UHGV virus genome: UHGV-0341991
Source: a virus
DNA length: 16,473 nucleotides
Reading direction: 5' to 3' (one strand)
The translations under genes and the position numbers were made by a program. The notes below the pieces were generated by a model, which had not been told where the DNA came from, made no database searches, and was given only the letters and a program-made list of their open reading frames with translations. This document shows, piece by piece, positions 1 to 5,904 of the stretch (position 1 is its first letter; each line of letters opens with the position of its first letter).

Positions 1-1
1 A

Positions 2-55
2 ATCCCCATACGCGGGGCAATTTCAGGGGTCAGCAGTGCTCTCACGGTCACCTCA
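2..55. repeat. Direct repeat copy 1 (54 bp); 53/54 identical to 436..489; may extend left of the window
   Basis: Read directly: atccccatacgcggggcaatttcaggggtcagCagtgctctcacggtcacctca here versus the same with T at the capitalised position at 436..489. Sequence 3' of it (56..124) is a degenerate in-frame match to the C-terminal codons of the KilA-N gene (..FNIVC* vs ..LDTVH*). Confidence 0.85.
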
Positions 56-134
56 GCAAACGATATTGAATGCATACAGAGAAAAAAACTCAGTCATCAC
101 GCAGTAAACTCCTTCACCAGTATTTCAAACTGGC

Positions 135-430
135 TGTTCAGGCCCGGTTCAGAGCTGATGCCCCTGTTTATGCAGGGGCGTGTCCTGCTGGAGCCTGAGC
201 CGGAACGTTATTCATCTTTCGCCAGCGGTGCCGTTCCGGCGGCACGCCACCAGCACGACGGATCACTGCCTCATTGCGGAACACGGCCCGAACGGCAGGA
301 TCATCCGCCAGCGGTTGTGATGCCGCCGGAACGGCACCGCTGGCGAAAGATGAATAACGTTCCGGCTCAGGCTCCAGCAGAACACGCCCCTGCATAAACA
401 GGGGCATCAGCTCTGAACCTGGCCTGAACA
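135..430. repeat. Large near-perfect inverted repeat: arms 135..244 and 321..430 (110 bp each, 2 mismatches), 76-bp spacer
   Basis: The reverse complement of 321..430 equals 135..244 except at positions 145 and 185. The two ORF-track entries 158..397(+) and 168..485(-) share the peptide MPLFMQGRVLLEPEPERYSSFASGAVPA, as expected for mirror-image artefacts of a palindrome. Confidence 0.9.
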
Positions 431-435
431 ATACG

Positions 436-489
436 ATCCCCATACGCGGGGCAATTTCAGGGGTCAGTAGTGCTCTCACGGTCACCTCA
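436..489. repeat. Direct repeat copy 2 (54 bp), forming the 3' flank and stop codon of the KilA-N gene
   Basis: 53/54 identity with 2..55; ends exactly at the TGA (revcomp of 487..489) of the 487..1296 CDS. Confidence 0.85.
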
Positions 490-1296
490 ATGAACGGTAT
501 CGAGCAGCTTTAACAGCTCAGGGAACCGGGATTCGAAGAAATGCGGCTGCGTCTCGCGCGGATTTGCAGGACTGGTGATGTTCTTGCCGAACATGCAGCC
601 TTTCGCCGTCAGCGACCAGAATTTTTTGATGTTGTTAATCGCGGTACGGCTGTATCGTTCGCGTTGTTCAACGATCCCCAGCTTCACCATCTGGTGATAT
701 GCCTGATTAGCCGTCAGGCGGATACCATACTGCTTCAGCAGTGCACTCAGCGACAGCGTGGGGCGACTTGAGCCATCAGGCGCGTCAGCAGGAGCATCAA
801 TGGCATAGCGCGGTGCCAGATTCGGTAAGCCAACAGCCTCCTGAAGCTTCTGACAGGCTCCAAGCACTGATGAGTTAGACAGATTTAATTCCCGGCGCAT
901 AAAGTCCAGCAGGATCACGCCAGCCTGCATCTTGTCAGCAGCCTGTCCGGATAATTTTTCCGGTGCGCTGGTTACCATGTCGAAAGTACGGATCACCTTC
1001 AGATGGAATGACGGGCTGATCCACATTGCATAGGCATACACCAGTTCTTTGCAGACATACGTCCCCTGGTTATTTCCGCCATTAATGACGCTAACTGGTT
1101 GATTTTGTTCCAGAGGCGGAATTCCACCCTCGGTGAAAAGTTGTTCAATCAATTCACAGGTTTGCTTATTGGAGAGCCAGTATTTCGGGCGGTTTTTTTG
1201 TTCTCCCCCGGCAGCCCTGTGCAGATCGTTCAGGCTGTAACGCCCATAAGCATCACGACGAACTTCAATACCATCAATGACCATCAGATTATTCAT
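487..1296 (-). CDS. Phage antirepressor-like protein, N-terminal KilA-N domain with ANT/KilA-C-like C-terminus
   Basis: N-terminal IDGIEVRRDAYGRYSLNDLHRAAGG..RPKYWL matches the KilA-N DNA-binding pattern from memory. Start set at ATG 1296 (MNNLMVIDG) because AGGAGA lies about 9 nt upstream; the track ORF extends to 1329 in frame. Confidence 0.7.
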   Translation of the reverse strand: MNNLMVIDGIEVRRDAYGRYSLNDLHRAAGGEQKNRPKYWLSNKQTCELIEQLFTEGGIPPLEQNQPVSVINGGNNQGTYVCKELVYAYAMWISPSFHLKVIRTFDMVTSAPEKLSGQAADKMQAGVILLDFMRRELNLSNSSVLGACQKLQEAVGLPNLAPRYAIDAPADAPDGSSRPTLSLSALLKQYGIRLTANQAYHQMVKLGIVEQRERYSRTAINNIKKFWSLTAKGCMFGKNITSPANPRETQPHFFESRFPELLKLLDTVH

Positions 1297-1315
1297 ACTT
1301 CGTTTCTCCTCTTGA

Positions 1316-1705
1316 TCAGGCGGCTGCACCCGCCGTTTTCTCGTACTTACTGATGGTGATCTCGACCTTCCCTTTCGGGATAACCGGTCCCCACTCCACC
1401 AGCATTCTTTTCACCTGTCTGTCGTCTTCCCACACACCCGCGTGGGTCAACGCGTCAAACAGCGCCTTGTTATAGTTGTCCAGATCGCGGATCCGGTTAT
1501 CCGGAGGAAACAACACGATCTCCACTGCAGCAGGTGCCGACGTTGGTTTTGGCAGACGACGTAACTGCTCAACTATTGCTGCGCACGCCGCGCTCTGAAA
1601 TTTTCGCCCCGCCGCGCTTATCAGGCTCTTACCAGCAAATGCCCCTTTGTTGGGGTGTCGCCAGTACGTGTTCACGCTGGGCGGGAAAGGCAGGATCAGC
1701 TTCAT
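1316..1705 (-). CDS. rusA: RusA-family Holliday junction resolvase (crossover junction endodeoxyribonuclease)
   Basis: MKLILPFPPSVNTYW.. and ..RDLDNYNKALFDALTHAGVWEDDRQV match the conserved RusA motifs (LP-PPS-N-Y; DLDN; DD-QV). Start overlaps the upstream stop (ATGA at 1702..1705). Confidence 0.85.
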   Translation of the reverse strand: MKLILPFPPSVNTYWRHPNKGAFAGKSLISAAGRKFQSAACAAIVEQLRRLPKPTSAPAAVEIVLFPPDNRIRDLDNYNKALFDALTHAGVWEDDRQVKRMLVEWGPVIPKGKVEITISKYEKTAGAAA

Positions 1706-2028
1706 ACTTTCAGGCCTCTCTCATGTAACCAGTGGGTTGCACGCAGCCTGGCGTTTTCCTCACCGGCAAGCAGTGAGCGGATAATCCCGACCGCCTCGCT
1801 GTCGTCGTCCTTCACCGCGGTATGAAGAGTGATACCCCGGGCCACGCCACGCTTTATCGTGATGACGCCTTTTTTCTCCAGTGCGCGAAGATGTTCCACC
1901 GCTGCATTCACTGAACGGTATCCCAGCATGGTTGCCACCTCCTGATTGGTTGGCGGGAAGCCACGTTCTTTCTGGTAAGAAATCAGCATATCCAGCACCT
2001 GCTGCTGGCATTGAGTTAACGTCGTCAT
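1702..2028 (-). CDS. LexA N-terminal (winged-helix DNA-binding) domain protein lacking the S24 peptidase domain
   Basis: QQQVLDMLISYQKERGFPPTNQEVATMLGYRSVNAAVEHLRALEKKGVITI parallels the LexA N-terminus ([46 protein letters not shown]). Only 108 aa, so no catalytic domain. ATGA overlaps at both ends. Confidence 0.65.
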   Translation of the reverse strand: MTTLTQCQQQVLDMLISYQKERGFPPTNQEVATMLGYRSVNAAVEHLRALEKKGVITIKRGVARGITLHTAVKDDDSEAVGIIRSLLAGEENARLRATHWLHERGLKV

Positions 2029-2678
2029 GCCGCCATCTCCCTGACCAGTTTTTCCGCCTGCTGGCGAACCTGCGCCAGAAACGCCTCACCACATGCCTCA
2101 AGTTCATCACGCCCGATGTAGCTGATTGCCGGTCCCTTCCAGGTCTTGTCGAAAACAGCAATAGCACCAGCGAAGAAAGCGCCTGTCGGCACCTGCTTCT
2201 CGTCCTTCGGTATAAACCAGGCAGGCAGTTCAAAACCAATACGCCCGCGAATAAAAGCAATATGATCTGCATCTTCCGGCCACCACACTTCGCTGGTGGC
2301 CGCTTTGATCAGGAAAACATAGCGCCCGCCCTTATCACGCATGACACTGGCATGTTTCATGATGTAACGCATGCCGGTGATGTATTGCCCCTCATGCTGA
2401 CTGGCGCGGCTGTATGGGGGATTACCAAAGGCAGCACCTTTAAGCTCCGCAAGACGTTCTGACCAGTCATGCGCCAGCGCGTTATCTTCCGCCGTGTAAT
2501 ACGCGGCACATTTGGCGTTATCACCGTCAGTAAACAGATCCAGAACAAACGGGCCAAACAGGGTGTTAATTCCCCAGAAAATGTTGTCCGGCGTGCGCCA
2601 CTGATCGCCCACTTCCTTCAGTTCATGGGCTGGTTTGTTCCGCAGTTCCACCAGCGCCTGGCAATATTTATTACTCAT
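2025..2678 (-). CDS. Phage Dam-like DNA N6-adenine methyltransferase (orphan MTase)
   Basis: FGNPPYS is the (D/N)PP(Y/F) catalytic motif, and the overall pattern fits the phage Dam family. Start chosen at ATG 2678 (MSNKYCQAL), overlapping the upstream TAA as TAATG; an in-frame alternative start exists at 2711. Confidence 0.8.
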   Translation of the reverse strand: MSNKYCQALVELRNKPAHELKEVGDQWRTPDNIFWGINTLFGPFVLDLFTDGDNAKCAAYYTAEDNALAHDWSERLAELKGAAFGNPPYSRASQHEGQYITGMRYIMKHASVMRDKGGRYVFLIKAATSEVWWPEDADHIAFIRGRIGFELPAWFIPKDEKQVPTGAFFAGAIAVFDKTWKGPAISYIGRDELEACGEAFLAQVRQQAEKLVREMAA

Positions 2679-3172
2679 TAAGCCCCCACGTAATTCCCTG
2701 ACAGATACCACTCTTCACCCGATGCAGCGCGCTTGCTGCTTTTCCGTAAGCACCGCTCACGACGCGCCAGAAAATTGTTTCGTTCTGGCTGGGAGTGGCT
2801 TTCACGGAATGCCGCCATCCACACGGTTGCAGCACGACGGTATAAGCCCCTGGACTCCAGTTCTTCAGCCTGGCGGGTCAGGCACAAAATCACCCGTGGA
2901 TCGTTAGTGCCGACATAGAAATTGCGCACAGGTCTGGTTTCTCGAACTGGTTGTGGTTCCGGTTCCTGCGCTCTCTCAGTCAGGCGCGGGAAATGTCTGC
3001 GTGTATCTCCTTCACAACGGTGAGCCACACGCCCACTCTGACGTAACTTGCTTGCTGACTGCAGAACGCGCTGCCGTGAGTAACCTGCAAAAGCATCCGC
3101 AATGTCTCCGGAAGTACACCCCGGATGGGCTTCAATGAATTTCTGAACTTCATTCAAAAGACTCATGATCAC
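2678..3172 (-). CDS. PerC/ANR-family-like transcriptional regulator (yfdN-like, 164 aa)
   Basis: C-terminal AEELESRGLYRRAATVWMAAF..RRERC resembles the PerC/ANR motif (LE-RGLWRRAA-RW...C), recalled from memory. The 164-aa length equals that recalled for K-12 YfdN. Start is GTG 3172 or ATG 3166; overlaps the upstream TGA. Confidence 0.5.
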   Translation of the reverse strand: MIMSLLNEVQKFIEAHPGCTSGDIADAFAGYSRQRVLQSASKLRQSGRVAHRCEGDTRRHFPRLTERAQEPEPQPVRETRPVRNFYVGTNDPRVILCLTRQAEELESRGLYRRAATVWMAAFRESHSQPERNNFLARRERCLRKSSKRAASGEEWYLSGNYVGA

Positions 3173-3987
3173 CCCCTGAATCCTGCCGGGATCTGGCTGT
3201 AGTCCACGTTGTCGTAACTGGCTTTGAAGTACGGGTCCTCGCGTCTGGCTGCAGATACCGCAGGAACTTCCCAGGATTCTTCGAAATGACGATCCGGACC
3301 AAAGAACGTAACAGCCTGTTTCACAAATTGTGTGCCGCTGTTACCCATCGCAGATACCCAGCCCGCGTAGCGTTTCACACCTTCCAGCATGGTTTCGGGG
3401 TTTACCCCCTCATTCAAACGGGCTTTCCAGGCTTTGAAGGCTGCAGATTTTGAATTGCCACCAGCACGTTTGGGATATACCAGCCATGCCTGCTCAAACT
3501 CCGGAGAGTATTCCGGTCGGTTTGAACGAACTCGCACGGACTCATCAACTGATGCACCAACAGCTATTGGTTCATTGACTGGTTCTTTGACTGGTTCAAA
3601 AGAGTGACTGGTTCTGGGTGAATCTCCTGCACTACCCCCTGGTGCAACTCCTGCACTACCTGGTGAATTTGCTGCACCAGATAGTGAATTATTTGCACTA
3701 CCCCCTAGTGAATCTCCTGCACCATCCAGATGAAGGAGATAGATATTACTTGAGTTACCTTTTTCACCTTTCCGGGTGACTTTTTTTACCAGCCCGGACT
3801 CACAAAGGGCCGCAATATGATTCATCACAGAACGTTTGCTAATCTCGCACTGGTCAGCAATATGCTGGTAGCTGGGCCAGCACTCCCCCTGATCGCTGGC
3901 ATTATCAGCCAGCTTGATCAGAACCAGTTTTCGCAATGGATTACCCACTCGAATTTTCATCGCTTTAACCATCAGCTCCATACTCAT
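3169..3987 (-). CDS. Replication initiation protein: N-terminal HTH, Gly/Ser/Ala-rich linker encoded by iterons, C-terminal DnaT-like domain (yfdO-like, intact)
   Basis: N-terminal KLVLIKLADNASDQGECWPSYQHIADQCEISKRSVMNHIAALCESGLV is an HTH of the phage replication-protein type. C-terminal YPKRAGGNSKSAAFKAWKARL..GTQFVKQAVTFF resembles the DnaT-like ssDNA-binding domain. Tandem DNA repeats lie inside the gene. Confidence 0.75.
   Translation of the reverse strand: MSMELMVKAMKIRVGNPLRKLVLIKLADNASDQGECWPSYQHIADQCEISKRSVMNHIAALCESGLVKKVTRKGEKGNSSNIYLLHLDGAGDSLGGSANNSLSGAANSPGSAGVAPGGSAGDSPRTSHSFEPVKEPVNEPIAVGASVDESVRVRSNRPEYSPEFEQAWLVYPKRAGGNSKSAAFKAWKARLNEGVNPETMLEGVKRYAGWVSAMGNSGTQFVKQAVTFFGPDRHFEESWEVPAVSAARREDPYFKASYDNVDYSQIPAGFRG
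3575..3730. repeat. Iteron-like tandem repeats inside the initiator gene: 3 copies of (t/g)tgactggttc at 3575..3614 and 5 copies of a 21-24 bp unit GTGAAT..TGCAC.A.CCCCT at 3618..3730; candidate origin
   Basis: Read directly; unit starts at 3618, 3642, 3663, 3684 and 3708. A moderately AT-rich stretch follows at 3731..3790. Lambda's origin has the same layout (iterons inside the O gene). Confidence 0.6.
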
Positions 3988-4208
3988 GCAGCACCTCCGA
4001 GATGCTTCATGTTTTTTCCGGAGCGAAAGGCTATAAGCGGCATACTGACGCGGTAACTACGGCCCAGCGGTTCACAAATCACCTTCTGACATTCACGGTC
4101 AACCAGGCTAACACGTAGAACATGCCCTGCAGGTGTGGTGTACCACTGACCCGGACGAGGACAACGGAAAGTCTGATTGGTAAACCGTTTGAAAATATTC
4201 CGGATCAT
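3984..4208 (-). CDS. Small basic hypothetical protein (74 aa)
   Basis: ORF with ATGA overlaps at both ends (3984..3987 and 4205..4208). No recognisable motif; Arg-rich and Asp-poor, so coding status is uncertain. Confidence 0.4.
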   Translation of the reverse strand: MIRNIFKRFTNQTFRCPRPGQWYTTPAGHVLRVSLVDRECQKVICEPLGRSYRVSMPLIAFRSGKNMKHLGGAA

Positions 4209-4750
4209 TTGCGCCCCCTTACCTCTGAAGGGTTCAGCGACAAATTTATGAGGCAGGCCAGTGCCGAAGCATCATTAATATAGTCATACAAGCTAACAGC
4301 CAGCGGAGATTCGGCTTTTGCCAACATAGGATAAAGCTGCTGCAGCCAGACCTGATGAATTGATGAAATGTAGGAATAGAGAACGCTGGCGTTATGTGCA
4401 ACGTCGCTCAGTACAGAGGGATTTGAAAGCTGTTTCTCCATCTGGTTAAAGGCATTGATGTATGCCTCTTTGAACTGGGCAGCACGTTTACCCGTGAAAC
4501 CCATAGCAAGAAACGCAAAGCCGTCGCGGGTTATTTGATAGCAAGGTAGTTTGCGGCCTGTGCAATCGGTGTAATCACTCGCCGAAAAATTGCGGGAAGT
4601 GAATGATGCAGAGCATTCAAGCGTGCGGATCTTTTTCAGTACATCGTCATGACGTTTGGAGAAGAAGTTGGCAACAGCCAGGGATGAAGTAACAGCCTGA
4701 CCATCAACGATGGCAATTTCAGGTTGAGTGAGGGTTGGGATCGTAGCCAT
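4205..4750 (-). CDS. Rha-family phage regulatory protein (181-aa form; the in-frame open frame continues upstream to 5356)
   Basis: MATIPTLTQPEIAIVDGQAVTSSLAVANFFSKRHDDVLKKIRTLE is the typical N-terminus of Rha-family proteins. ATG at 4750 is preceded by AAAGAGG. The 202 upstream codons (4751..5356) have no stop but only about 1% Asp, and contain a terminator-like hairpin. Confidence 0.6.
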   Translation of the reverse strand: MATIPTLTQPEIAIVDGQAVTSSLAVANFFSKRHDDVLKKIRTLECSASFTSRNFSASDYTDCTGRKLPCYQITRDGFAFLAMGFTGKRAAQFKEAYINAFNQMEKQLSNPSVLSDVAHNASVLYSYISSIHQVWLQQLYPMLAKAESPLAVSLYDYINDASALACLINLSLNPSEVRGRK

Positions 4751-4916
4751 GATGGCAGCCTCTTTGGTGATTTTTAATAACTCACCACCAAGGCTTTCCA
4801 CGACCTTATTGGTGGTGAGACGTACAGGGGTGGAAATACCGGTCACCAAAGAACCCGGCCCAACCGAAGTTGGCCCTGCACGCCCCACCATAATTTGGGC
4901 GTAATGCTGCTCATTA

Positions 4917-4941
4917 CACAAAAAAACCGCAAGAGCGCGGT
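4917..4941 (-). terminator. Candidate intrinsic terminator or attenuator inside the open frame upstream of Rha
   Basis: Minus strand reads aaccgc-gctctt-gcggtt followed by a 5-7 U tract (stem 4924..4929 with 4936..4941). The loop contains CGCTCTT. Confidence 0.35.
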
Positions 4942-5352
4942 TGTGCGCTTTGGTGAATTCCGAGTTTCCACGCCCGGCACCCGCTTTATAAGGTGCCTGA
5001 ACAGTGTAACGTCCCGGAATGGCAGAATCAATGTGCTGGTGGTCCTTCACACTCAACAAAATCACGCCTGAATTTCCACAAAGGACTAAAGCACTCATGC
5101 GGGTAGTCTTTGCGAAGATAGATAACGCGCTGTGTTTCTGGCTCCCAACGAATAACATGGACATAAAGCCCTCTTCCGTCACGAAACCAGCGGTTAAGTT
5201 CCTGCACAACTCGCCCCCCACAGTCAGGTAAAGTTCTCTGTGGTTACTTACAGCCAAGTGATTTGGTAATCTGCATTCATGCCGTAACAACAGGTGTTCA
5301 GCGACACTGACCACCAGCTGTTGCGACAAACGGTTATTTGCCGTTAAACTGT

Positions 5353-5904
5353 TCATGCGTTAGTTTCTCCACAGACACAAAACGCCACGACGCCCGGAGC
5401 TGCACACTCGCGGGCGTCACTCTTTTCTGGAGCGCAGAAGATTTTGTAGACCAGTGCTGCATGCTCCTGGAGCTTCGAAATTGACAGATACAACTCATCA
5501 TTAATTGCTGTCTGCTCGTGTGGCTCCACGACCCCATCTTCGATTGCCGAACGAATCTGCTTTGAGTAATTCCCGATCTGTTCGATGACTTCCAGCAGGC
5601 GCTGGTTTATATCGGCGTTCTCTACTTCCTCAATTTCAGGAAGCGATACGAACACCCCACCAGCAGACTGTGCGACAGCATCCGCAATGTAGTGAGTGCC
5701 AGCCGCGCGCTGTAAAACCATTGCCCATCCCAGCGGGAAAATCTGATCGCCATCTGCACGAAGGCGGTTGAATAAAGCGTTCTCTGTTACATCCAGCCAG
5801 TCAGCAGCTTCAGCGTAACCCCCAGGCAATGCCGCGATAGTTTTTCTGACAGCTTTCACGTACCACTCAGGTTGTTTTTCCACTTTCCAATGATGCTTAC
5901 CCAC
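5353..5904 (-). CDS. CII-position phage regulatory protein (183 aa), function unassigned
   Basis: Acidic, protein-like composition. GTG start at 5904 preceded by AGGAGG with a 6-nt spacer; overlaps the cro stop by 8 nt. Sits immediately downstream of cro, where lambdoid phages place cII-like regulators. Family assignment is a guess. Confidence 0.6.
   Translation of the reverse strand: MGKHHWKVEKQPEWYVKAVRKTIAALPGGYAEAADWLDVTENALFNRLRADGDQIFPLGWAMVLQRAAGTHYIADAVAQSAGGVFVSLPEIEEVENADINQRLLEVIEQIGNYSKQIRSAIEDGVVEPHEQTAINDELYLSISKLQEHAALVYKIFCAPEKSDARECAAPGVVAFCVCGETNA

What the first reader, a model, noticed from the sequence alone, without database searches (positions are those of the whole stretch)
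1..489. Near-perfect 110-bp-arm palindrome flanked by 54-bp direct repeats downstream of the KilA-N gene
Arms 135..244 and 321..430 are reverse complements with 2 mismatches, separated by 76 bp; this would form a hairpin or cruciform of over 100 bp. It lies between two 54-bp direct repeats (2..55 and 436..489, 1 mismatch). The right repeat is the 3' flank of the KilA-N gene; the left repeat is followed by a degenerate remnant of a homologous gene end. The layout suggests a palindromic MITE-like insertion, a recombination scar between paralogous antirepressor genes, or a structured RNA or terminator. An assembly artefact is also possible.
Basis: seen in the sequence. Interest (0 to 1): 0.65.

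Follow-up and report, generated by a model that had tools for sequence, protein, structure and literature searches.

The report
Fold-back rearrangement scar in prophage gene
The palindrome is a one-off rearrangement scar in which the first part of an ordinary prophage gene (DUF968/YdfU) was copied backwards where two related E. coli prophages were joined; it is not a mobile element or an RNA signal, and one breakpoint lies exactly where the RecBCD repair enzyme cuts next to a Chi site.

Summary
Arms 135-244 and 321-430 are 108/110 complementary with a 76-nt spacer. Repeats 2-55 and 436-489 differ at one base.

The arms are codons 17-53 of the DUF968/YdfU gene, which normally follows KilA-N and precedes Q in lambdoid prophages.

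w1-380 is 100% identical to one prophage type ('A', E. coli JNEC-KY173) in three pieces:
- w1-135, forward: the last 39 nt of an upstream gene plus the DUF968 start.
- w135-244, inverted: DUF968 nt 50-159.
- w243-380, forward: DUF968 nt 237-100.

From w340 to w14583 the window is 100% identical to a second type ('B', strain SCU-484). The two arm mismatches are the A/B SNPs. The left 'direct repeat' is the start of a second DUF968 copy, cut by the window edge.

The layout is sense, antisense, sense: a small inverted triplication with 2-nt and 1-nt junction microhomologies. Junction J1 lies 4 nt 3' of a correctly oriented Chi site, where RecBCD cuts.

Neither junction occurs in 5,426 complete E. 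coli genomes, 50,697 phage records or the contig collections; thousands of relatives have the undisturbed gene.

MITE, terminator and known RNA family are rejected. An artefact cannot be excluded without reads, but the Chi position favours an in vivo origin.

The parts
1..45 (-). First 45 nt of a second, A-type DUF968/YdfU gene copy (GTG start at w45-43). It runs off the left edge of the window. This is the core of the left 'direct repeat'.
   Evidence: w1-135 is 100% identical to L001 3193-3327, where the DUF968 CDS ends at 3237 (= w45).
46..96 (-). A-type intergenic DNA upstream of the second DUF968 copy. It includes the GAGGTGA Shine-Dalgarno. w56-69 keeps 10/14 similarity to the KilA-N 3' end, which marks a mosaic module boundary.
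97..135 (-). Last 39 nt of the A-type 85-aa hypothetical gene (WP_001065350.1 homologue). It is a fragment only, cut off by junction J2.
   Evidence: L001 CDS 3289-3546 maps to w97 onwards; identity is 100% up to w135 and homology then stops.
135..136 (.). Junction J2. DUF968 position -89 (reading towards the gene) is joined to the inverted copy at nt 50, with 1-nt microhomology (T).
   Evidence: Parental sequences compared.
135..244 (+). Left arm: an inverted copy of DUF968 nt 50-159 (codons 17-53), pure A-type.
   Evidence: 110/110 identical to L001 3188->3079 on the opposite strand; 97.3% to B-type loci.
243..244 (.). Junction J1. DUF968 nt 237 (sense) is joined to antisense nt 159, with 2-nt microhomology (CA on the + strand, TG on the gene strand). 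The position is Chi+4.
247..254 (-). Chi site 5'-GCTGGTGG-3' on the gene-sense strand (DUF968 nt 226-233). It is oriented to be recognised by RecBCD arriving from the Q/lysis side.
   Evidence: The cut position 4-6 nt 3' of Chi is from PMC5041463.
245..320 (-). Spacer or loop: DUF968 nt 160-235, present once here and colinear with the right arm.
   Evidence: w243-700 is colinear with L002/L004.
321..430 (-). Right arm: DUF968 nt 159-50 of the KilA-N-linked copy. It is A-type at w339 and B-type at w381 and w420, and those two positions are the only arm mismatches.
   Evidence: SNP table.
340..380 (.). Interval of the homologous A/B exchange. Everything to the left is 100% A-type. Everything to the right, up to w14583, is 100% SCU-484-type.
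   Evidence: Only 5 mismatches occur in 14,355 bp: w246, w339 and three at 14584-14593.
436..503 (-). Right 'direct repeat': the KilA-N stop (487-489), the Shine-Dalgarno and the first 44 nt of DUF968 (GTG at 479; alternative GTG at 485).
168..485 (-). Chimeric ORF of 105 aa (103 aa from GTG 479). It comprises DUF968 residues 1-79 plus 24 residues read from the inverted arm (PPERHRWRKMNNVPAQAPAGHAPA*).
   Evidence: It has no Pfam hit and is not on record in the gene index. No database protein carries this tail.
487..1296 (-). KilA-N domain gene (269 aa), intact. It is the upstream neighbour of DUF968 in the pR/nin operon.

Best explanation
The palindrome is a structural scar inside the pR/nin operon of a lambdoid E. 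coli prophage, not a functional element.

Read along the gene strand, the DNA runs as follows:
1. KilA-N, then DUF968 nt 1-237.
2. At J1 it turns back as the antisense of DUF968 nt 159-50.
3. At J2 it restarts 89 nt upstream of a second DUF968 copy and runs on, off the window, presumably towards Q.

This is the sense-antisense-sense layout of an inverted triplication nested in a duplication (TID, or DUP-TRP/INV-DUP). It is the expected product of two template switches by one growing DNA strand.

Proposed steps (inferred):
1. A double-strand break on the Q/late-gene side was resected by RecBCD up to the Chi site at DUF968 nt 226-233. This left a 3' tail ending ...GCTGGTGGCGTG-3' (Chi+4).
2. The tail did not prime on the allelic template. 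Its terminal TG paired with CA 76 nt upstream on the same-sense strand (snap-back or sister strand) and 110 nt were copied backwards.
3. The end then switched, on 1 nt of homology, to an intact A-type duplex at position -89 and continued normally.
4. A homologous exchange 100-140 nt on the 5' side of Chi (w340-380) links this A-type material to the resident B-type prophage. Overall this is one homologous joint plus illegitimate joints, as in homology-facilitated illegitimate recombination.

Consequences (inferred):
- A truncated 103-105-aa DUF968 chimera.
- A possibly intact second DUF968 copy with its own ribosome-binding site.
- A 110-bp-stem hairpin in the delayed-early transcript.
- An interrupted DNA palindrome of the size class that SbcCD cleaves on the lagging strand.
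For: Anatomy (shown):
- w1-135, w135-244 (inverted) and w243-380 are each 100% identical to adjacent parts of one A-type locus, L001.
- w340-14583 is 100% identical to the SCU-484 prophage.
- The two arm mismatches coincide with A/B SNPs.

Context (shown): mEp460, SCU-484 and every one of 15 other fetched loci show KilA-N -> 329-aa DUF968 -> Q.

Junctions (shown): microhomologies are 2 nt and 1 nt. This is too short for a de Bruijn graph mis-join and typical of template switching or illegitimate joining.

Chi (shown):
- GCTGGTGG lies on the gene strand, followed by CGTG and then J1.
- RecBCD cuts 4-6 nt 3' of Chi (PMC5041463).
- Only 0.5% of positions on that strand of the operon lie at Chi+2..+6. 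That gives roughly p = 0.01 for the two donor ends, assessed post hoc.

Independent junctions at the same spot:
- A Logan contig carries a DUF968-Q deletion joint at Chi+1..+5.
- Among truncated DUF968 proteins, foreign junctions cluster at codons 66-79.

Known precedents: inverted triplications by template switching (PMC4689423) and HFIR in E. coli with 0-1-nt joints (PMC3240628).
Against: - No reads are available, so the two junctions are unverified. Neither occurs anywhere else that was searched, and the chimeric ORF is not in the gene index. A singleton is what a chimeric molecule or misassembly would also give.
- The third copy of nt 50-159, the rest of the second DUF968 gene and Q lie outside the window and are assumed.
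- The Chi coincidence was noticed after the fact in a very Chi-rich region (9 sites in 16.5 kb).
- A 2-nt primer-template pairing is weak.
- The order of events cannot be reconstructed: fold-back first in an A-type phage and then exchange with B, or one break-induced event.
- The inverted arm is A-type at all three SNPs while the right arm is A/B mosaic. Pure self-templated snap-back therefore requires a later exchange or mismatch correction.
Confidence: 0.58

Rival explanations
1. Sequencing or assembly artefact. A chimeric molecule (a library-preparation or amplification template switch) or a mis-resolved repeat joined the DUF968 copies of two co-resident prophages. On this reading the palindrome does not exist in the cell.
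For: - The structure is a singleton. It is absent from 5,426 complete E. coli genomes, 50,697 phage records, GTDB representative genomes, IMG/VR and JGI metagenomes.
- The chimeric ORFs are not on record.
- DUF968 is multi-copy in many strains (median 2 and up to 8 places per genome), so it is a classic assembly trouble spot.
- The A/B 'crossover' could be bubble-popping between two copies.
- In vitro polymerase template switches also give inverted joints with short microhomology.
Against: - Junction microhomologies of 2 nt and 1 nt cannot arise from graph traversal. They need real molecules carrying them at consensus depth.
- Two such joints 110 bp apart in one chimeric molecule would be needed.
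- J1 falls exactly at the RecBCD cut position of a correctly oriented Chi. An in vitro artefact has no reason to respect that.
- The sequence continues at 100% identity for 135 bp past J2 to what looks like an arbitrary window cut. The right end of the window is in the middle of zur.
Confidence: 0.27
2. A real rearrangement formed without RecBCD/Chi. Candidates are replication-fork template switching (FoSTeS/TID) or phage recombinase-mediated strand annealing between two prophages. On this reading the Chi adjacency is a coincidence.
For: - The sense-antisense-sense layout and short microhomologies fit generic template switching (PMC4689423).
- The region is so Chi-rich (9 sites against 0.42 expected) that a chance hit is not negligible, at about 1%.
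- One of the other junctions at this spot is a Mu-like transposition, which is unrelated to Chi.
Against: - The exact Chi+4 position and the correct Chi orientation.
- A second independent deletion joint at Chi+1..+5.
- No pre-existing short inverted repeat at the base of the loop, which classical snap-back TID or ODIRA models expect.
Confidence: 0.12
3. A functional element: a MITE-like mobile palindrome, an RNase III-processed regulatory hairpin or terminator controlling Q expression, or an invertible switch.
For: - The hairpin is extremely stable.
- It sits in the delayed-early transcript upstream of the presumed DUF968-Q genes.
- Lambda does use RNase III hairpins such as sib (own knowledge).
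Against: - The arms are ordinary coding sequence of the flanking gene.
- There is no second copy anywhere.
- No relative conserves the structure.
- There is no T-tract.
- Rfam gives only sub-threshold generic hairpin hits.
- The flanking repeats are 54-68-bp gene starts, not target-site duplications.
- A translated ORF runs through most of the stem.
Confidence: 0.03

Closest known systems
Tandem inversion duplication (TID, Salmonella/E. coli) and DUP-TRP/INV-DUP or inverted triplications (yeast ODIRA, human CNVs; PMC4689423)
   Same: Three copies with the middle one inverted. There is one head-to-head and one tail-to-tail joint. The triplicated core is nested within duplicated flanks. The asymmetric joints carry little or no homology.
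   Different: - The scale is tiny: a 110-bp inverted core rather than kilobases to megabases.
- No pre-existing short inverted repeats lie at the joints.
- The outer copies come from two different prophage types.
- The third copy is not visible within the window.
Homology-facilitated illegitimate recombination (HFIR; shown in E. coli in PMC3240628)
   Same: One homologous joint (A/B exchange at w340-380) sits next to illegitimate joints with 1-2 nt of microhomology. Linear DNA processed by RecBCD is the presumed substrate.
   Different: HFIR normally inserts foreign DNA without an inverted fold-back segment. Here two illegitimate joints flank an inverted copy of the homologous anchor itself.
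The Leach laboratory 246-bp interrupted palindrome in E. coli lacZ (111-bp arms, 24-bp spacer; PMC4245961, PMC3315005)
   Same: The arm length is almost identical (110 vs 111 bp), the setting is chromosomal, and the centre is interrupted. Such a palindrome forms a lagging-strand hairpin cut by SbcCD and is tolerated in rec+ cells.
   Different: The spacer is 76 bp rather than 24 bp, which should lower hairpin formation. The arms have 2 mismatches. This one is natural rather than engineered. SbcCD sensitivity was not tested.
Chi-RecBCD end processing (PMC5041463)
   Same: The Chi octamer is in the active orientation for an enzyme arriving from the Q/cos side. The junction lies at nucleotide 4 on the 3' side of Chi, within the 4-6-nt cutting window.
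   Different: The canonical outcome is RecA-mediated homologous invasion. Here the end appears to have primed at a 2-nt microhomology in inverted orientation.
MITEs and other palindromic mobile elements
   Same: Terminal inverted repeats flanked by direct repeats, at first glance.
   Different: It is single-copy. The arms are host-gene coding sequence. The direct repeats are 54-68-bp gene starts rather than short target duplications.

Membership tests
MITE / palindromic mobile element | Multiple copies in the genome or in related genomes | tested here: not met
   No place in 5,426 E. coli genomes or 50,697 phage records covers more than one arm of w90-300 or >=80% of w1-520.
MITE / palindromic mobile element | Short target-site duplication flanking element-specific terminal repeats that are unrelated to the flanking genes | tested here: not met
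   The flanking repeats are 54-68 bp and are the starts of two DUF968 copies. The arms are DUF968 codons 17-53.
Intrinsic terminator | Short GC-rich stem followed by a T/U run | tested here: not met
   The terminator scan finds none in w1-500 on either strand. The stem is 110 bp with no T-tract.
Curated structured RNA family (Rfam) | Match at or above a family gathering score | tested here: not met
   There are only sub-threshold hits to plant miRNA precursors (best 89 bits against a gathering score of 200), which any long hairpin produces.
Inverted triplication (TID / DUP-TRP/INV-DUP) | Middle copy inverted between two direct copies, with one head-to-head and one tail-to-tail joint | tested here: inconclusive
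   Both joint types and the inverted middle copy are shown. Only the first 45 nt of the third copy lie inside the window, so the third copy of nt 50-159 is inferred.
Inverted triplication (TID / DUP-TRP/INV-DUP) | Joints with microhomology or short inverted repeats | tested here: met
   J1 has 2 nt (CA/TG) and J2 has 1 nt (T). No longer inverted repeat lies at the loop base.
Chi/RecBCD-generated DNA end | 5'-GCTGGTGG-3' on the strand that ends 3' at the break, with the break 4-6 nt to its 3' side | tested here: met
   The gene strand reads GCTGGTGG-CGTG|junction, that is Chi+4, or +2..+4 allowing for the microhomology. The cut window is from PMC5041463.
Chi/RecBCD-generated DNA end | Dependence on RecBCD and on the Chi sequence | not testable with these tools
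   This needs genetics (recB/recC/recD mutants, Chi mutants).
SbcCD-sensitive interrupted palindrome | Long arms (about 100 bp or more) with a short central asymmetry | tested here: inconclusive
   The 110-bp arms match the 111-bp experimental case, but the spacer is 76 bp against 20-24 bp (PMC4245961).
SbcCD-sensitive interrupted palindrome | Replication-dependent SbcCD cleavage; loss of viability in recA/recB hosts | not testable with these tools
   This requires an experiment.
DUF968 / YdfU protein family (for the 105-aa ORF) | Pfam PF06147 domain and C-terminal HNH-like motif | tested here: not met
   The chimeric ORF keeps only residues 1-79 and has no Pfam hit. The full 329-aa relatives carry PF06147 and HNHc_6.

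The most novel reading that the evidence does not exclude
The scar is a natural footprint of a RecBCD-cut Chi tail (ending at Chi+4) that primed DNA synthesis at a 2-nt microhomology in inverted orientation. More generally, Chi sites inside prophage genes would then act as hot spots for illegitimate fold-back and deletion joints that help build lambdoid mosaics. Two further independent junctions lie within 5 nt of this same Chi: a DUF968-Q deletion and a Mu-like prophage insertion. Foreign junctions also cluster at DUF968 codons 66-79.
Probability: 0.3. Interest if true: 0.6.

Novelty: new member of a known kind. Interest (0 to 1): 0.33.

Why it matters
As a genome feature it is minor: a private rearrangement that truncates one copy of a non-essential prophage gene.

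Its value is as a natural, nucleotide-resolved example of how lambdoid prophages are spliced together. One homologous exchange lies next to two microhomology joints with a fold-back, and one joint sits at the exact RecBCD cutting position beside Chi.

If reads confirm it, three things follow:
- It would be field evidence that Chi-terminated ends can seed illegitimate, inverted joints.
- It would be a wild counterpart of the engineered 111-bp-arm palindromes used to study SbcCD.
- It would be a caution for annotation pipelines, which would otherwise call a spurious small ORF or a 'MITE' here.

Tried and rejected
- **MITE.** Rejected: single copy, and the arms are coding sequence of the flanking gene.
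- **Terminator or known RNA.** Rejected.
- **Recombination between antirepressor (KilA-N) paralogues.** Rejected. KilA-N is intact, the left copy has a different upstream gene, and the repeated unit is DUF968.
- **Simple inversion of a segment.** Rejected. The flanks are in swapped order, which requires duplication (analysis).
- **Site-specific target at DUF968 nt 237.** I considered this because a Logan contig (L020) breaks at the same nucleotide. It turned out to be the TG-terminated end of a Mu-like transposable prophage that lies next to many different genes elsewhere. It is therefore a transposition, about 2 nt away once the element's TG is assigned.
- **Pre-existing quasi-palindrome priming the fold-back.** The natural 16-nt inverted repeat at 300-315 / 336-351 is centred at w325, not at the palindrome centre w282. 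No complementarity beyond 2 nt exists at the loop base.
- **Finding the source contig or the left flank.** This failed:
  - Exact look-ups of four chimeric ORF versions, plus M-start variants, found nothing.
  - KilA-N (7,312 blocks) and Rha (539 blocks) look-ups returned only normal loci.
  - Junction 30-mers found nothing in genome, viral or metagenome collections.
  - 18-mer scans gave only chance matches of 22-31 nt.
- **Protein search for the chimeric tail.** It found only frameshifted, contig-end or otherwise truncated DUF968 N-termini. None carries the PPERHRW... tail.

Full report
**1. Observation**

The repeats are exactly as described. Inverted arms 135-244 and 321-430 are 110 nt long and 98% complementary, with 76 nt between them. 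A direct repeat covers 2-69 and 436-503, and its first 54 nt differ at one base.

The single-strand fold is far beyond shuffled controls. RNA folds at -281.9 kcal/mol (z = -29) and DNA at -167 kcal/mol (z = -28).

The neighbouring gene 487-1296(-) is a KilA-N gene.

**2. Context**

The minus strand of w487-6400 is the rightward early (pR/nin) operon of a lambdoid prophage. It reads Cro-like, CP76, Rha/Ash, replication, PerC, Dam, LexA-DBD, RusA, KilA-N.

In phage mEp460, in E. coli SCU-484 and in 15 further loci fetched through the KilA-N and Rha proteins, the order continues KilA-N, then a 329-aa DUF968/YdfU protein (PF06147 plus an HNH-like motif), then antiterminator Q.

The right 'direct repeat' therefore holds the KilA-N stop, the Shine-Dalgarno and the first codons of DUF968 (GTG at w479). 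The right arm and the spacer are DUF968 nt 50-235.

**3. Anatomy at nucleotide level**

blastn against three reference loci and a SNP table give the following. I number DUF968 from its annotated start, so g1 = w479.

- w243-700 is colinear with the KilA-N-linked 'B-type' loci. Homology stops abruptly at w243 (g237).
- w1-135 is 135/135 identical to an 'A-type' prophage of E. coli JNEC-KY173 (L001 3193-3327). This stretch covers the last 39 nt of an 85-aa hypothetical gene, the intergenic region and DUF968 g1-45.
- w135-244 is 110/110 identical to the same A-type locus in inverted orientation (g50-159).
- w243-380 is also 100% A-type.
- From w340 to w14583 the window has no mismatch to the SCU-484 prophage. 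The only five differences in 14,355 bp are w246, w339 and three at 14584-14593.

So there is a homologous A/B exchange in w340-380. The two mismatches between the arms (w381, w420) are simply the A/B SNPs, which means the palindrome was originally perfect.

Read along the gene strand, the order is:

...KilA-N, g1 -> g237 | antisense g159 -> g50 | g-89 -> g45 -> (off window).

The left repeat is thus the beginning of a second DUF968 copy truncated by the window edge. The w1/w435 difference is a synonymous A/B SNP.

**4. Junctions**

J1 (w243/244) has 2 nt of microhomology and J2 (w135) has 1 nt. No longer inverted repeat exists at the base of the loop.

A simple inversion cannot give this order, because the flanks are swapped. 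It needs duplication. The layout is an inverted triplication nested in a duplication (TID, or DUP-TRP/INV-DUP; PMC4689423), which is the expected product of two template switches by one growing strand.

**5. Uniqueness**

- No place in 5,426 complete E. coli genomes or 50,697 phage records spans either junction.
- Junction 30-mers are absent from GTDB representative genomes, IMG/VR and JGI metagenomes. The 18-mer matches there are chance hits of 22-31 nt.
- The chimeric ORFs are not in the 153-billion-gene index, and no database protein carries the antisense-derived tail.
- The A-type junction in its normal form occurs at 100% identity in 25 of 5,426 genomes. None of these is an SCU-484-like strain.

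**6. A mechanistic clue**

The gene strand at J1 reads GTGCTGGTGGCGTG|CCGCCGG. GCTGGTGG is Chi (w254-247, g226-233), and the junction follows nucleotide 4 on its 3' side.

RecBCD cuts 4-6 nt to the 3' side of Chi on exactly this strand when it arrives from the 3' side (PMC5041463). Here that means arriving from the Q/lysis/cos direction.

A tail ending ...GCTGGTGGCGTG-3' could pair its terminal TG with CA at g158-159. Extending backwards from there gives precisely the observed 76-nt loop and inverted arm.

Only 0.5% of positions on this strand of the operon lie at Chi+2..+6. The coincidence is therefore about p = 0.01 for the two donor ends. It was noticed post hoc, in a Chi-rich region (9 sites against 0.42 expected).

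Three further observations bear on this:

- An independent Logan contig (L022) carries a deletion fusing DUF968 to the C-terminal part of Q, with its joint at Chi+1..+5.
- Another contig (L020) breaks at g235-237. That break is the end of a Mu-like transposable prophage, so it is probably unrelated.
- Among truncated DUF968 proteins with foreign tails, the break codons are 32, 47, 48, 66, 68, 74, 74, 78/79, 79, 105 and 113. This is a suggestive cluster next to Chi (codons 76-78). The numbers are small and the search is biased towards short proteins.

**7. Best explanation and rivals**

I consider the 'what' well established, at over 90%. It is a fold-back rearrangement of the DUF968 5' end at a joint between two lambdoid nin regions.

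The 'how' is inferred. A Chi-terminated RecBCD end primes in inverted orientation, a second switch goes to an A-type duplex at g-89, and a homologous A/B exchange occurs 100-140 nt on the 5' side of Chi. This is an HFIR-like combination (PMC3240628).

The rivals are:

- **Sequencing or assembly chimera.** The singleton status supports it. The 1-2-nt joints, the need for two joints and the Chi+4 position argue against it.
- **Generic template switching, with Chi as coincidence.**
- **A functional element (MITE, terminator, regulatory hairpin).** This is effectively excluded: there are no copies, no conservation, no T-tract, no Rfam family, and the arms are coding sequence.

**8. Likely consequences (inferred)**

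- The KilA-N-linked DUF968 copy is truncated to a 103-105-aa chimera with no Pfam domain.
- The second copy keeps its Shine-Dalgarno and start, so it may be intact.
- The delayed-early transcript contains a 110-bp stem that RNase III could cut, although the chimeric ORF is translated through most of it.
- At the DNA level, the arms match the 111-bp arms of the engineered interrupted palindrome that SbcCD cleaves on the lagging strand and that rec+ cells tolerate (PMC4245961). The 76-bp spacer here should reduce hairpin formation.

**9. Verdict**

The kind of event is known and this instance is new. Interest is modest, raised somewhat by the Chi+4 junction. The decisive test is read-level validation plus the sequence to the left of w1.

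Noticed in passing
window 247-5664 and 12739-12746: Chi (GCTGGTGG) is strongly over-represented, with 9 sites in 16.5 kb against 0.42 expected from shuffles. Seven are on the minus strand, and six are co-oriented with the pR operon. They would protect against RecBCD entering from the Q/cos side.
   Followed up: partly
L022 5001-5312 (Logan SRR14160800_227): An independent prophage carries a deletion that fuses DUF968 codon ~78 to the C-terminal part of an antiterminator Q gene. The joint lies at Chi+1..+5 of the same Chi site as junction J1.
   Followed up: partly
L020 6001-6303 (Logan SRR12206277_82); L021 5001-10463: A Mu-like transposable prophage is inserted in DUF968 at nt 235-237, within 2 nt of J1. 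The element has a TG-terminated end and carries Com, a cytosine methyltransferase, DUF826, DUF1378, a tail fibre gene and an invertase. In other E. coli genomes the same element end abuts comEC, dacD, pgrR and other genes.
   Followed up: partly
proteins P0001-P0093: Many short database 'proteins' are DUF968 N-termini followed by frameshifted, foreign or adapter-derived tails (for example LSLIHI / YTHLDVYKRQ from Nextera adapters). Foreign-tail break points cluster at codons 66-79, next to Chi.
   Followed up: partly
window 14598-16260: A 1.66-kb AT-rich island lies between the prophage end and zur. It encodes a 320-aa DUF2713 protein (15048-16010, minus strand). SCU-484 has 134 bp of other sequence there. 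Three SNPs at 14584-14593 mark that boundary.
   Followed up: partly
window 13337-14325 (minus strand): A Panacea-domain (SocA-like antitoxin) gene at 13753-14325 overlaps by 4 nt a 139-aa ORF with no Pfam hit at 13337-13756. The pair looks like a toxin-antitoxin module at the prophage end.
   Followed up: no
window 56-69 vs 490-503: The A-type intergenic DNA upstream of DUF968 keeps 10/14 identity to the last codons of KilA-N. This looks like the decayed edge of a mosaic module boundary shared by the two nin-region types.
   Followed up: no
window 179-385: Rfam E-value-mode hits to plant miRNA precursor families (MIR839, 89 bits against a gathering score of 200). This is a generic response of long-hairpin models to any long perfect stem, not homology.
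   Followed up: yes
L013 10811-11820 (CP029579.1): No DUF968 gene is called in a gap of normal size between KilA-N and Q. It is probably a frameshifted pseudogene.
   Followed up: no
window 13000-16473: The prophage abuts zur. No integrase gene was noticed at this end, and none is annotated in the SCU-484 relative between the early-left genes and zur. The attachment site and integrase arrangement of this prophage family were not examined.
   Followed up: no
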